A stretch of 64,000 nt of DNA from Octopus vulgaris (lineage: Eukaryota). Under the pieces are notes generated by a model. That model worked only from the letters and a program-made list of their open reading frames with translations. It ran no database searches and was not told the DNA's origin. This document shows positions 9,207-62,090 of the stretch, piece by piece. Both the position numbers and the translations under genes were made by a program. The stretch spans positions 20,026,001 through 20,090,000 of the forward strand of contig OX597839.1 in the NCBI GenBank assembly GCA_951406725.2. The letters run 5' to 3'. The first letter of the stretch is position 1, and each line of letters opens with the position of its first letter.

Positions 9207-9242
9207 CTTTTACGTTTCGAGCCAACGCTCTTCTACAGAAAG
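9207..9242 (-). ncRNA. Variant minimal hammerhead ribozyme motif (A6U core) in (TA)n-adjacent element ~9115-9290
   Basis: Minus strand reads cttt-CTGTAGA-a-gagc(gttg)gctc-GAAA-cg-TA-aaag: stem I, stem II and palindromic stem III ACGT. Confidence 0.55.
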
Positions 9243-9664
9243 GTACACAGAAAAAACAAGGAGAGAAACAAGGAGAGAAAAAAATATATACATATTGGTA
9301 ATCGGTGCGCATTCAAAGCTAGTGAACAGCAATGACGATACCGGTATGATTTTTAATTTCTTTAACAATTCAAAATAATGACTTTTATTCCTCTTAATTC
9401 TACTGCAGTTCATCTAATTGGATATATTTATCACGACTTTTTCATAAAAATCCTTTATTTTTCTGATATTCAATGTGCATTTTCGCTTTTTTCTTCTTAT
9501 TTTCCCTATATATATATATATATATATATATATATATATATATATATATATATATATATGTATGTATTGGGGAGAATTCACAAAAAAAAGAAAAAAAAGA
9601 CGAACACAGCTGGTGTAGACAACAAACGGATGTATTAGTATAACGCTCGGGAAGTGAAAAAGTG

Positions 9665-9698
9665 TTTAACGTTTCGAGCCTATGCTCTTCCACAGAAA
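9665..9698 (-). ncRNA. Variant minimal HHR motif, second copy (element ~9570-9770)
   Basis: Minus strand: ttt-CTGTGGA-a-gagc(atag)gctc-GAAA-cg-TT-aaa. Confidence 0.5.
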
Positions 9699-9841
9699 GG
9701 AACACAGAAGGAAACAACAAGGAGAGAAAGTAAAGAATATGCAATGGCTAGCGACCAATCATAGCGATATATAAATAAATAAATAAATAAATATATATAT
9801 ATATATATATATATATATATACATATGTATGTATATGTATA

Positions 9842-10117
9842 TCACGTGATCACGTGACCGACCAGACCATCAGATGTTGCTACACATCGCTGGTCACAAT
9901 GCGTTCGCATTGTTCTAGCCTGCTGGCTAAGCGAGCAGGCCAACAGAAGAAAGAGTGAGAGATAGAGTACAGCAGGGACACCACCCCTGTCGGAGCATCG
10001 TGAAGCCTTTAGGTATTTTCGCTCATTAAACACTCACAACGCCCGGTCTGAGAATCGAAACTGCGATCCTATGACCGCGAGTCCGCTGCCCTAACCACTG
10101 GGCCATTGCGCCTCCAC
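9842..10117 (-). mobile_element. SINE family C (head GGAGGCGCAATGGCCCAGTGGTTAGG, tail ...GGTCGGTCACGTGATCACGTGA)
   Basis: tRNA-like head with A/B boxes; tail shared with 51525-51645. Confidence 0.8.
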
Positions 10118-10196
10118 ATATATATATATATATATATATATATATATATATATATATATATATATATATATATATATACATATATATATATATATA

Positions 10197-58377: not shown

Positions 58378-58590
58378 TTCTTTTATTCTTTTGCTTGCTT
58401 CAGTCATTTTGACTGCGGCCATGTTGGAGCAGCGCCTTTAGTCGATCAAACTGTCCATAGGGCTTATTCATTGTAACCATTGTGCTTAGTCTATCAGTCT
58501 CTTTTGCCCAACCGCTAACTTACGGGGACGTAAATACACCAGCATTGGTTGTTAATCGATGGTGAAGGAAAAACACAGACACCCCGAAAC
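58378..58590 (-). mobile_element. SINE family A, 3' half
   Basis: Family motif. Confidence 0.75.
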
Positions 58591-59388
58591 ACAAATACAT
58601 ACATACATATACACACACATGTACATATATAAATTATATAAGGTATTATGATTATCATTATTAGCATTAATAATAACAACAACAATAATAATAATAATAG
58701 TAATAATAATAATAATAATAATAATAATAATAATAATAATAATAATAATAATAATAATTCATTCGTTTATTGGCCACAAGGGTTAACAAAAATCAATTAT
58801 AACATAAAGGGACAACACGCAGGACGAAAGTTACAAAGGGTTTTGTCCGTTTGAAAAAGGTCCGTGTACAAAAGCAGGATGACAACGAAATATAAGTAAC
58901 AATTAAAACTCCCAATAGGAGGAGTAATATTAATAATAATAATAAGTGGCCAGCAAGTTTATAGCTATATAGGTAAAAATATACAAATAAATTAAGTAGG
59001 GTATTAGAATACCACTTGCTAGAAATAGAAGCTAACACTCCAAAACCACAGAATTTCTCACTAATAAAATACCCACGGCGAATGTAGCGAATATAAAAGA
59101 AATAGACTTACCGTATATGAAACTACAGAAGCAAGGAAGACAGATATTCCGGTCTGTCTGTCTGTCTTCGGAATATCCGTTTTTTTCTGGCTTCTGTAGT
59201 TCATAGAAGGTAAGCCTACTCACAATGCTTTGGCCGGCCCGAAGGCTATAGTAGAAGACACTTGTCAATGATGCCATGCAGTGGGACTGAACCTAGAACC
59301 TTGTGGTTAGGAAACAAGTCACTGCTGCACCTATTTACCTATATATATATATATAAACATATATATATATATGCATATATATATATAT

Positions 59389-59586
59389 GTAGGTCCCGGG
59401 TTGAGTCGGGGTTAACCACAGTAAATAAGGTACTCAATACATAGCAGAGTAAATTAATTTATTTTATAGAAGGAGCTTCTACAGGACTAGAACTGTTTCA
59501 TTCAAATGAAATCATCAGGAAGCTTGATGATTGCATTTGAATGAAACAGTTCTAGTCCTGTAGAAGCTCCTTCTATAAAATAAAAT
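59389..59586. mobile_element. PLE-like palindromic element in (TA)n with an intact HHR on minus (59474-59524) and a centre-deleted HHR on plus
   Basis: Near-identical to 41444-41643; the + copy has lost bases at the palindrome centre including C3. Confidence 0.75.
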
Positions 59587-61915
59587 ATGCATATATATAT
59601 ATATATATATATATATATATATATATATATATATATATATATATTCACACACACATATATAGACATATACATATAATATAGATAATATATAAATATATAT
59701 GCATATATACATATACGTACATACATATATATGTATATACACATGCATATATGACACAGGACACCACAGAACGTAAACAGCATGAAATACGGAAACAACA
59801 TAAAATACGAAATACGAAAACATGGAATACGAACTTTCTTTTTTCGAACAACGATACAAACGAATGGAAAACAAGACAAACAACATAAAAAAAACGACCT
59901 TTCAGCTGAAAAATATAGAATTCCTCATAAGTAATACAAACGTCGTAAATTCCCTGGCGTGGTTAATGAAGATATTATGCATTAATTGAATGTGTTAAAC
60001 TTATCTTTATTAATGTATATCGAATTATACATAGATATATATACAAGATTTACACAAATATAAGAGTTAGAACCTGAATTCTGAGCTATCAGCAGCCGCG
60101 GATTCCAGACTAATACCGAAATTCATCAGGGAGAAAACCCTGGTTTTACGTCGGTAAAAACCGTTGCGTGGTGTTTAGCGAAGAGCCATATTATCTCTAA
60201 CTGTGTACTGATCATTAAAGATGTGTCAAAGTATTTCTGTCTCAAAAATTGGATTAGATAGACAGACAGACATACAGATAGACAGACAGATAGGGAGATA
60301 GATAGGTAGACACACACACACACACACACACACACACACACACACACACACACACACACACACACACACAAACACACAGAGATAGATAGATAGATAGATA
60401 GATAGATAGATAGATAGATAGATAGATAGATAGATAGATAGATAGATAGATAAGTTTCTTTATTGGCCACACAGGGCTGCACACAGATGGGACAAGTTAC
60501 AAGGTAGAGCTTTTCTTTTGGGGGAGAAAAAAAAGGTAGATAGATAGATAGATACATACATACATACATACATACATACATATATACATACATACATACA
60601 TACATACATACATACATACAGATAAACAGACAGACAGACAGACAAATAGATAGATATGATGAGCTTCCATGCAATTTCCTTCTGACCAATTCACCACCAA
60701 GCTGTGAAGGCGTTGCTTAGCCCGAGGCTTAATAAGCAGGCAGGAGCCCAAGGTGCCATGTTTATTTTACATTTCTCATTAAAATTATAATTTCGAGGAT
60801 TCAAAAAGAAAAAAAAAATTATTTACGGCTCAAAATTTCAAGTACGGTAGCCTGCACTTAACTATATATAATCTATGCAGAAGACATGCTTGAAAAAATA
60901 TTCCTAACGTCATTCGATGCGCGCGCTTGTATGAGAGTGAGTGAGTGAGTGAGAGAATGAGTGAGTGAGAGAGTGAGTGAGTGTAAGGGTGAGTGTGCGT
61001 TCATTGTCTCTGTGTCGACCAGCGAGTGAAGATAGGTCAAGCGTAGTATCTCAATATCATACAGCTGCACGTGAGAGTCTTCTGCGCCCTTCACGCCTCA
61101 CCTCCCGATCTCTCTACTACCCACCCATTTACATCGCTACCCTCATAATCTGCTCTGCCCTCTCTCGTCTTACTATTATCTATCAGGGATTTTAATTCTC
61201 CCGAGCCGCCTTCATCTATTCTATCTATCCATTTGTATATCTATTTATCCGTCCATATATTCATTTGTCTGTTTATATATTTATATACGCATCTACCTAT
61301 CTATTTCCCTCCCTTTCTCTCTCCCTTTCTCTCTCTCTCTCTCTCTCCCAGTATGTACATATCGCTGCTATTATGTTAAACTGTCGTATGTCCTAATTTG
61401 GCCAAATTTGTTGTTTGTTTTTTCAATATCTATTTTTGCTTGCAATAACTGGTTCTTTTGGTCAAACTATCGTTTTCTGAAAAAAGCAACGTTTCGGACT
61501 TACGACACTTCTGCATAATAGCAACGAAATATATATATATATATATATATATATATATATATATATATATATATATATATATATAGATAGATAGATAGAT
61601 AGATAGATAGATAGATAGATAGATAGATAGATAGATAGATAGATAGATAGATAGATAGATAAGAAAGTTGGTTTGTGAAAGCACGTGGTTGAATATATAG
61701 AAAATAGTAAAAAGTGAAAAATCTACAGAAGGCTTAAAGGTTAAAAAATATATATATTTGCGTCAATATATCTGAAGAATATTAAAAAATTTTTCTTACA
61801 ATGACATAGTTTAGAAGAAAGACCGGTTTCGCGTTTAGCTTTTCAAATTTCTTGCGACTATATATATATATATATATATATATATATATATATATATATA
61901 TATATATATATATAT

Positions 61916-62090
61916 AGTTTAAATCTATAGAAAAACAAAAGACGAAGACAGGTGTATGAACAACAAGCAAGTGTATTAGTTTGACGCTCGGGAAAATGAG
62001 AAAGTCTTTTATGTTTCGAGCCTACGCTCCTCAACGGAAAGGAGTAAGAGAAAATAAACAGAGACAGAGAGAGAATGAAAAAGACTTTTA
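61916..62090 (-). mobile_element. (TA)n-adjacent element of the 9115 family with HHR-like motif 62006-62041
   Basis: cttt-CCGTTGA-g-gagc..gctc-GAAA-ca-TA-aaag. Confidence 0.55.

What the first reader, a model, noticed from the sequence alone, without database searches (positions are those of the whole stretch)
9207..62041. Family-wide A6U core in four dispersed copies
Copies at 9207, 9665, 48627 and 62006 read CUGUAGA, CUGUGGA, CUGUAGA and CCGUUGA. U is fixed at the normally conserved A6 while position 7 and the stem II loop vary as in real HHRs. GAGC/GCTC stem II is invariant and there is an extra purine after A9. Inference: either a functional non-canonical core or a ribozyme fold kept as a recognition signal.
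Basis: partly seen in the sequence, partly recalled or inferred. Interest (0 to 1): 0.7.

Follow-up and report, generated by a model that had tools for sequence, protein, structure and literature searches.

The report
Penelope repeat with U6 hammerhead core
A very abundant short repeat in this animal genome, likely the tail of a Penelope-type jumping gene, carries a hammerhead-ribozyme-shaped motif in which a normally essential A is replaced by U throughout the family, so it likely cuts itself poorly and would offer a natural test of whether these elements need their ribozyme at all.

Summary
Four copies share U6 by descent, but contigs of four public runs (three organism labels, 2,459-12,886 contigs each) show the same: no other letter reaches 2% at position 6, while position 7 varies. 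The same scaffold in other animals has A6 in 48 of 51 distinct motifs, twice behind a Penelope-type ORF. The extra purine and short stems are known Penelope features. Best reading: a cleavage-poor hammerhead inherited from source elements that insert uncut RNA. A weakly active variant or a binding fold remain open. No autonomous partner was found. The scan noted Penelope hammerhead tails in other genomes before, but no A6U family.

The parts
9116..9300 (-). Repeat copy 1 (5' limit uncertain, about 9300-9310); 3' end abuts (TA)n at 9115
9207..9242 (-). Minimal type I hammerhead shape: stem I CUUU/AAAG, core CUGUAGA (U6 at 9235), extra A, stem II GAGC/GCUC, GAAA, palindromic stem III ACGU, A17 at 9211; intact apart from U6
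9570..9765 (-). Repeat copy 2, between TA-rich microsatellites; 5' end about 70 nt before C3
9664..9699 (-). Hammerhead shape, core CUGUGGA (U6 at 9692), U17, one stem I mismatch
48536..48720 (-). Repeat copy 3, (TA)n on both sides; 5' end about 62 nt before C3
48627..48662 (-). Hammerhead shape, core CUGUAGA (U6 at 48655), with G12A at 48638 (CpG site; loss of the catalytic guanosine)
61918..62110 (-). Repeat copy 4, a divergent subfamily (77-80% to the others; its distinct flanks recur as loose-end consensus in the laid runs); 3' end abuts (TA)n
62006..62041 (-). Hammerhead shape, core CCGUUGA (U4C at 62036, U6 at 62034), extra G, G16.2A at 62012

Best explanation
The four sites are copies of one very abundant ~190-nt repeat, likely the 3' end (pseudo-LTR part) of a Penelope-like retrotransposon, whose hammerhead-shaped motif has U in place of A6 across the family; U6 is predicted to cut self-cleavage to a low level, and the family likely spread anyway because a Penelope reverse transcriptase/endonuclease would copy the uncut RNA into (TA)n tracts. 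Shown: the motif, its strand, the (TA)n junctions, U6 as the family state, copies that span the would-be cut site. Inferred: Penelope origin (no linked ORF found), mobilisation in trans by target-primed reverse transcription, one A6U change in a source element before the subfamilies split, low cleavage. Predicted only: U6 pairs with A15.1 and ties up the palindromic stem III that the dimer needs.
For: Anatomy matches the published metazoan Penelope minimal hammerhead point for point except position 6 (PMC4209133 main text parts 1-2 of 4 and supplement parts 1-2 of 3). The same core-plus-stem II scaffold in metagenome contigs has A6 in 108 of 117 matches and 48 of 51 distinct hammerhead-shaped strings, and in 2 of 116 loci it lies on the same strand behind a Penelope-type ORF (L039: RVT_1 E 5e-8, motif 673 nt past the stop; L007: tblastn E 3.5e-12, 197 nt). 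All 4 copies end on (TA)n about 90 nt past position 17; microsatellite targeting is described for several Penelope clades (PMC8557442, passages). U6: no other letter at 2% in 4 of 4 runs, and present in the 77-80% divergent copy 4. Position 6 matters for catalysis: natural A6C gives under 0.1 per min (PMC3088659, passages) and 3.6e-6 vs 0.3 per min in 0.3 mM Mg2+ in a second ribozyme (PMC7151607, parts 1-2 of 4); all single mutants of the CUGA turn were low in a full mutagenesis (PMC9901934, passages). Folding gives U6-A15.1 pairing with probability 0.59, 0.22, 0.50, 0.80 in the four copies and 0.00 with A6 (37 C). Hammerhead-dead mutants of an anole Penelope element still insert in vitro from unprocessed RNA (PMC11167929, passages). 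4 of 4 copies span the cut site and none of the 24 loose-end rows shown lies at 9210-9211 (416 not shown). G12 decays at the same level as other CpG sites (2-5%).
Against: Among subfamily-level variants the ten non-CpG core positions show none while the 3' tail shows 13 of 47 (p 0.057) and position 7 has two alleles of 6-10%: the pattern a working core would leave. The 36-nt motif is more alike than the 75-nt tail in 6 of 6 copy pairs (0.81-0.94 vs 0.76-0.89; not independent). The activity data are for A6C and other scaffolds; no A6U rate was seen in any paper read. A6C cores stay active with Mn2+ and Penelope hammerheads can be protein-assisted. No RT or endonuclease ORF is linked to any copy, so Penelope membership rests on the motif and junctions. 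Copies with a canonical core also span their cut site (11946-12097), so that point does not single out U6.
Confidence: 0.5

Rival explanations
1. A working but slow non-canonical hammerhead: source elements kept the catalytic core after A6U because low, protein-assisted or Mn2+-favoured cleavage of dimers still serves the element's RNA processing.
For: 0 of 10 non-CpG core positions vary at 2% while position 7 carries three alleles and the tail varies at 13 of 47. U6 is shared by subfamilies about 20% apart. A natural A6C ribozyme cleaves at 0.05 per min in 3 mM Mg2+ and 0.3 per min in Mn2+; Penelope minimal hammerheads are slow by nature and one needs its protein.
Against: The contrast is not significant (p 0.057-0.30) and stems vary as much as the tail (3 of 14, including a stem I break in 6-13% of depth at 9207). 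No compensatory pair. U6 is predicted to capture A15.1. 3 of 4 window copies carry a further core or stem defect. Scaffold-identical motifs elsewhere keep A6.
Confidence: 0.27
2. A non-catalytic fold kept as a handle for the element's protein: U6 turns the junction into a rod (stem I, then U4.G16.2/G5-C15.2/U6-A15.1, a GA-rich internal loop, stem II) that the reverse transcriptase binds, which would hold the same bases fixed and leave position 7 free.
For: The rod is the minimum-energy fold in 3 of 4 copies over the 40-nt motif and disappears with A6; it predicts the same conserved set as seen.
Against: The rod gains only about 0.2 kcal/mol in copies 1 and 3, fold z-scores are -0.37 to 0.51; copy 4 breaks the U4.G16.2 pair; no covariation. 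In the anole element initiation depends on a stem-loop further downstream. No binding data.
Confidence: 0.18
3. Not hammerhead-derived: an unrelated SINE-like repeat whose consensus happens to resemble the motif.
For: No Rfam hammerhead family matches up to E 10; no ORF is linked; none of 116 metagenome loci is similar to the repeat by BLASTN at E 1e-3.
Against: Ten of eleven core bases, G10.1-C11.1, the extra base, the ACGU palindrome, H17 and stem I all fit; 0 hits in 100 shuffles. Rfam also does not list the canonical pair at 11946-12097 as hammerheads, so its blank says little.
Confidence: 0.05

Closest known systems
Minimal type I hammerheads in the pseudo-LTRs of metazoan Penelope-like elements (Cervera and de la Pena 2014, PMC4209133)
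   Same: Type I layout, short stem I, one extra base between A9 and 10.1, G10.1-C11.1, palindromic two-pair stem III without loop, U-rich 5' flank, occurrence as dispersed single truncated copies.
   Different: Position 6 is U; all 56 representatives in their Figure S3 have A6 (their descriptor required it), and the only core change they report is C3-G8 to U3-A8. No ORF is linked here.
Natural A6C hammerhead of phage Bcep176 (Perreault et al. 2011, PMC3088659; Naghdi et al. 2020, PMC7151607)
   Same: A natural substitution at position 6 in an otherwise canonical core.
   Different: C rather than U, a single phage locus with a full stem III and tested activity, against an untested change fixed in a eukaryotic repeat with thousands of laid contigs.
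Poseidon element of Anolis carolinensis (Frangieh et al. 2024, PMC11167929)
   Same: Hammerhead roughly 90 nt from the inserted 3' end, AT-rich targets, copies made from RNA that spans the cut site.
   Different: Canonical core with protein-assisted cleavage shown; autonomous.
Naiad elements, including the (TA)n-targeting octopus Naiads (Craig et al. 2021, PMC8557442)
   Same: (TA)n insertion bias; high copy numbers without a canonical hammerhead.
   Different: Exact searches of that supplement for four short words of this repeat showed no match in an octopus record among the places displayed (GCTCGAAAC only in two Chlamys records, GAGCGTTATAC none), and the 3' ends shown differ.
Non-LTR retrozymes (Cervera and de la Pena 2020, PMC7229834)
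   Same: Short non-coding animal repeats with type I hammerheads, thought to be mobilised by Penelope elements.
   Different: Retrozymes are tandem arrays with canonical hammerheads; these copies are dispersed singles with a minimal, altered core.

Membership tests
Hammerhead ribozyme (canonical) | Core C3 U4 G5 A6 N7 G8 A9 / G12 A13 A14 / A15.1-U16.1 / H17 | tested here: not met
   U6 in 4 of 4 copies and in the family; all other core bases met in copies 9207 and 9665; G12A in 48627, U4C in 62006
Hammerhead ribozyme (canonical) | Self-cleavage 3' of H17 | not testable with these tools
   needs kinetics; contigs cannot show RNA ends
Hammerhead ribozyme (canonical) | Match to an Rfam hammerhead model | tested here: inconclusive
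   none to E 10, none among 150 of 337 rows shown; the canonical pair is not listed either
Penelope minimal hammerhead (min-HHR) | Type I layout with short stem I and G10.1-C11.1 stem II | tested here: met
   31 of 32 stem cells paired
Penelope minimal hammerhead (min-HHR) | One extra base between A9 and 10.1 | tested here: met
   A, A, A, G
Penelope minimal hammerhead (min-HHR) | Palindromic 15.1-16.1 segment for a dimeric stem III | tested here: met
   ACGU in 3 of 4 copies, ACAU in copy 62006; alternatives 1-7% at the CpG in the runs
Penelope minimal hammerhead (min-HHR) | Consensus core CUGANGA | tested here: not met
   CUGUNGA
Penelope minimal hammerhead (min-HHR) | Covariation in stems within the family | tested here: inconclusive
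   0 of 8 pairs in only four sequences, 7 of 8 never vary; one search gives no linkage between sites
Penelope-like element (EN+) | RT plus GIY-YIG ORF upstream of the terminal repeat on the same strand | tested here: inconclusive
   no ORF linked to any of 4 copies; no assembly was held to look for full-length partners; the same scaffold lies behind such ORFs in L039 and L007
Penelope-like element (EN+) | 3' end inserted into AT-rich or microsatellite target | tested here: met
   4 of 4 copies end at (TA)n-type tracts
Penelope-like element (EN+) | Partial-tandem or inverted arrangement | tested here: not met
   the four copies are singles; copies 9207 and 9665 are 458 nt apart but 82% alike and separated by other sequence
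Non-LTR retrozyme | Tandem 150-400 nt monomers with canonical type I hammerhead | tested here: not met
   dispersed single copies, minimal motif

The most novel reading that the evidence does not exclude
A Penelope-derived family of tens of thousands of copies or more has replaced the near-invariant A6 by U and kept the rest of the catalytic core under selection: the first natural U6 hammerhead, cleaving slowly as a dimer with help from the element's protein or Mn2+, and invisible to every descriptor that demands CUGA, so that some 'ribozyme-less' Penelope families may in fact carry position-6 variants.
Probability: 0.27. Interest if true: 0.68.

Novelty: new variant of a known kind. Interest (0 to 1): 0.4.

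Why it matters
What the hammerhead does for Penelope-like elements is an open question (PMC8557442, passages; PMC11167929). A family that reached very high copy number with a change at a near-invariant core base is a natural experiment. If U6 is dead, it shows in a genome what was shown in vitro, that cleavage is dispensable for spread. If U6 is alive, it widens the hammerhead core consensus and means that published counts, which rest on CUGA descriptors, miss whole families. Either answer needs only a 40-nt RNA and one revertant. It is not a new kind of system.

Tried and rejected
No whole genome is held, so subfamilies, full-length partners and R-scape-type covariation could not be examined. 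Rfam gave only microsatellite-driven miRNA matches. The scaffold pattern found 0 matches in viral contigs and a family-specific pattern 0 in prokaryotic genomes. No RNA holder listed; run X10 is only guessed to be RNA and says nothing on expression. Six-frame translations beside copies 9207 and 62006 matched no Pfam family. A protein search with the endonuclease-like remnant at 8796-9050 among longer proteins found none (36 candidates). Searching protein collections with a translated frame of the repeat, to read position 6 in more distant relatives, found nothing or two unrelated repetitive proteins. An alternative register with U inserted before A6 was rejected: it makes C3.A8 and puts the variable base at position 6. 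Fold z-scores are unremarkable for all six motifs. The dimer model did not separate U6 from A6: the hammerhead dimer is not the lowest-energy cofold in either. The published octopus Naiad ends are different sequences. Lunse et al. 2017 (about 150,000 short-stem-III variants, figure recalled) is not held and may bear on novelty; only a review's passages on it were seen. PMC11014351 has no 'A6U'. Earlier findings: nothing by sequence or place.
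Full report
Setting. The window is eukaryotic, 23-42% GC by 2-kb bin, dense in microsatellites and short dispersed repeats, without long clean ORFs or tRNA genes. It looks to me like an octopod genome; that label is recalled and comes from no call. No assembly is held. Public runs under five coded organism labels hold parts of the region 8000-9300.

The observation. The four motifs are real and lie on the minus strand. Each reads stem I 5' arm CUUU, core, one extra purine, GAGC, four-base loop, GCUC, GAAA, a two-pair palindromic stem III, H17 and the stem I 3' arm. Cores are CUGUAGA, CUGUGGA, CUGUAGA and CCGUUGA as stated. A strict descriptor with positions 6 and 7 free passes 2 of the 4 copies and finds nothing in 100 shuffles of 200-nt blocks.

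The element. The motif sits inside a repeat of about 190 nt; the copies are 77-89% alike. All four 3' ends run into (TA)n-type tracts about 90 nt past position 17, and three copies begin with a similar ATG-containing word 62-73 nt before C3. No RT or endonuclease frame is attached: frames beside copies 9207 and 62006 match no Pfam family, and tblastn with a Penelope-type protein finds only a weak endonuclease remnant at 8820-8933 on the other strand (E 0.13; Pfam GIY-YIG E 0.042).

Is U6 family-wide? Four related copies share a base by descent, so I laid contigs of four runs (X1, X4, X6, X10; organism labels A, B, C, A; 4 of the 24 listed) on 9116-9275 at 80% likeness, listing differences from 2%. 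12,886, 10,393, 4,395 and 2,459 contigs were laid. There is no row for 9235 (position 6), nor for C3, U4, G5, G8, A9, the extra base, A13, A14, A15.1, U16.1 or position 17: no single other letter reaches 2% of depth there in any run. Position 7 has two further alleles, U at 5.7-9.9% and C at 6.2-7.4%. G12, 11.1, 15.2, 16.2 and 10.4 change at 1-8%, all as CpG-type transitions, like CpG sites outside the motif. Limits: shares are depth-weighted, contigs drop rare variants, relatives under 80% are not seen, and sites are not linked. Summed depth over the depth of single long contigs would put the family at roughly 1e4-1e5 copies, in line with 4 per 64 kb, but the tool warns that this is no copy number. 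Copy 62006 belongs to a second subfamily whose flanks recur among the loose ends of the runs, and it has U6 too, so the change likely predates the split (inference).

Is the core under constraint? Excluding CpG bases and the reference copy's private changes, 0 of 10 core positions, 3 of 14 stem positions, 2 of 6 free positions, 13 of 47 tail positions and 2 of 17 upstream positions vary at 2% or more. Core against tail gives Fisher p 0.057; at 3% and 5% thresholds 0.12 and 0.30; core plus stems against tail 0.12-0.24. One stem I pair is broken in 6-13% of depth (9207). The motif is more alike than the tail in 6 of 6 copy pairs, which are not independent. This leans towards constraint but does not show it.

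The scaffold elsewhere. A scan of metagenome contigs for the same core and stem II with positions 6-7 free returned 117 matches in 116 loci (37 of 64 parts scanned). Position 6 is A in 108, C in 3, G in 3, U in 3. Of 51 distinct strings that also have U16.1, H17 and at least two stem I pairs, 48 have A, and one each C, G and U; the U case (L113) looks like a decayed member of a family whose other members have A. None of these loci resembles the window's repeat by BLASTN. In L039 the motif lies 673 nt behind an ORF with RVT_1 (E 5e-8) and, by eye, a GIY-YIG region that Pfam did not score; in L007 197 nt behind a related remnant; these are 2 of 116 loci. So the scaffold is a Penelope-type 3' hammerhead, A6 is its rule, and this family is the exception. 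The pattern was built from the window's motif, so the match in stem II is by design; position 6 was free.

What is known. Cervera and de la Pena (PMC4209133; main text parts 1-2 of 4, supplement parts 1-2 of 3) describe the extra base, the G10.1-C11.1 pair, the palindromic stem III, dispersal as single truncated copies and low activity; all 56 representatives have A6, under a descriptor that required it. A natural A6C exists in phage Bcep176 with under 0.1 per min (PMC3088659, passages); A6C is strongly impaired in Mg2+ and much less in Mn2+ (PMC7151607, parts 1-2 of 4). All single mutants of the CUGA turn were low in a complete mutagenesis of one hammerhead (PMC9901934, passages). In the anole Poseidon element hammerhead-dead mutants insert normally in vitro and cleavage needs the protein (PMC11167929, passages). 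Craig et al. (PMC8557442, passages and supplement searches) call the function unclear and show that Naiads thrive without canonical hammerheads. An Octopus vulgaris repeat annotation (PMC13282606, parts 1-2 of 3) lists Penelope families but in the parts read no hammerheads. I found no report of a natural A6U family in nine searches ('hammerhead' with 'A6U' listed one twister paper, not opened). Lunse et al. 2017 is not held and could already contain such variants. PMC7229834, PMC6765202 and PMC11014351 were seen as passages, the 2026 retrozyme preprint as part 1 of 5, PMC5680766 as abstract.

How it likely works. A Penelope-type protein acting in trans would bind the short RNA, nick a (TA)n tract and copy the RNA from about 90 nt beyond the cut site (inferred and the junctions). 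Every window copy spans the cut site, and no displayed loose-end row lies there (24 shown, 416 not), so the copied RNA was uncut; this holds for the canonical pair at 11946-12097 as well. U6 would weaken cleavage in two ways: loss of A6's contacts (by analogy to A6C), and a predicted new helix U4.G16.2, G5-C15.2, U6-A15.1 that hides the palindrome needed for the dimer (U6-A15.1 probability 0.59, 0.22, 0.50, 0.80; zero with A6). The energy gain is small (about 0.2 kcal/mol in two copies), fold z-scores are unremarkable and the dimer model does not separate U6 from A6. I give 0.5 to a cleavage-poor motif carried along by source elements, 0.27 to a slow working ribozyme, 0.18 to a non-catalytic binding fold and 0.05 to chance likeness.

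Verdict. A new variant of a known kind: it has the layout of a Penelope minimal hammerhead, fails the canonical core test at position 6, and its activity is untested. Interest 0.4.

Noticed in passing
window 11946-11989 (-) and 12054-12097 (+), within about 11760-12190: A second family with a canonical core (CUGACGA, stem II AUGUC/GACAU, palindromic stem III ACAAUUGU, stem I CCAC/GUGG) as two identical motifs in an inverted arrangement whose outer ends both run into (TA)n; one arm extends about 100 nt further. It fits the inverted 5'-truncated layout of Penelope elements and is an in-window A6 control.
   Followed up: partly
window 8820-9050 (+): Broken GIY-YIG endonuclease-like remnant (Pfam E 0.042; tblastn E 0.13) ending just before the (TA)n tract that abuts copy 9207, in convergent orientation; no homologue among longer proteins.
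   Followed up: partly
window 9300-9506: About 200 nt of AT-rich sequence between copy 9207 and the next (TA)n tract ends in TTTTCCC before the tract on the + strand, like the family's own 3' end; it may be the end of another (TA)n-targeting element. No Pfam match in three minus-strand frames.
   Followed up: partly
L039 1377-3627 (-); L007 3126-3940 (-): Penelope-type RT and endonuclease sequence (with a CxxCxxC linker in L039, as recalled for the Neptune clade) upstream of canonical minimal hammerheads with the same stem II.
   Followed up: partly
L017 and L113: Single hammerhead-shaped matches with C6 (L017) and U6 (L113) in otherwise A6 families; probably decayed copies.
   Followed up: no
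PMC8557442 supplement, 3' ends of Naiad_Obim and Naiad_Ovul: Both show CUGUUGA ahead of a GACAC/GUGUC helix that closes on GAAA; the register does not fit a standard core, but it is a second U6-like word near the end of a (TA)n-targeting Penelope element.
   Followed up: no
window, e.g. 736-1134, 1667-1986, 18296-18849, 21550-22339, 44004-44373: At least two other abundant SINE-like dispersed families, one in short tandem runs.
   Followed up: no
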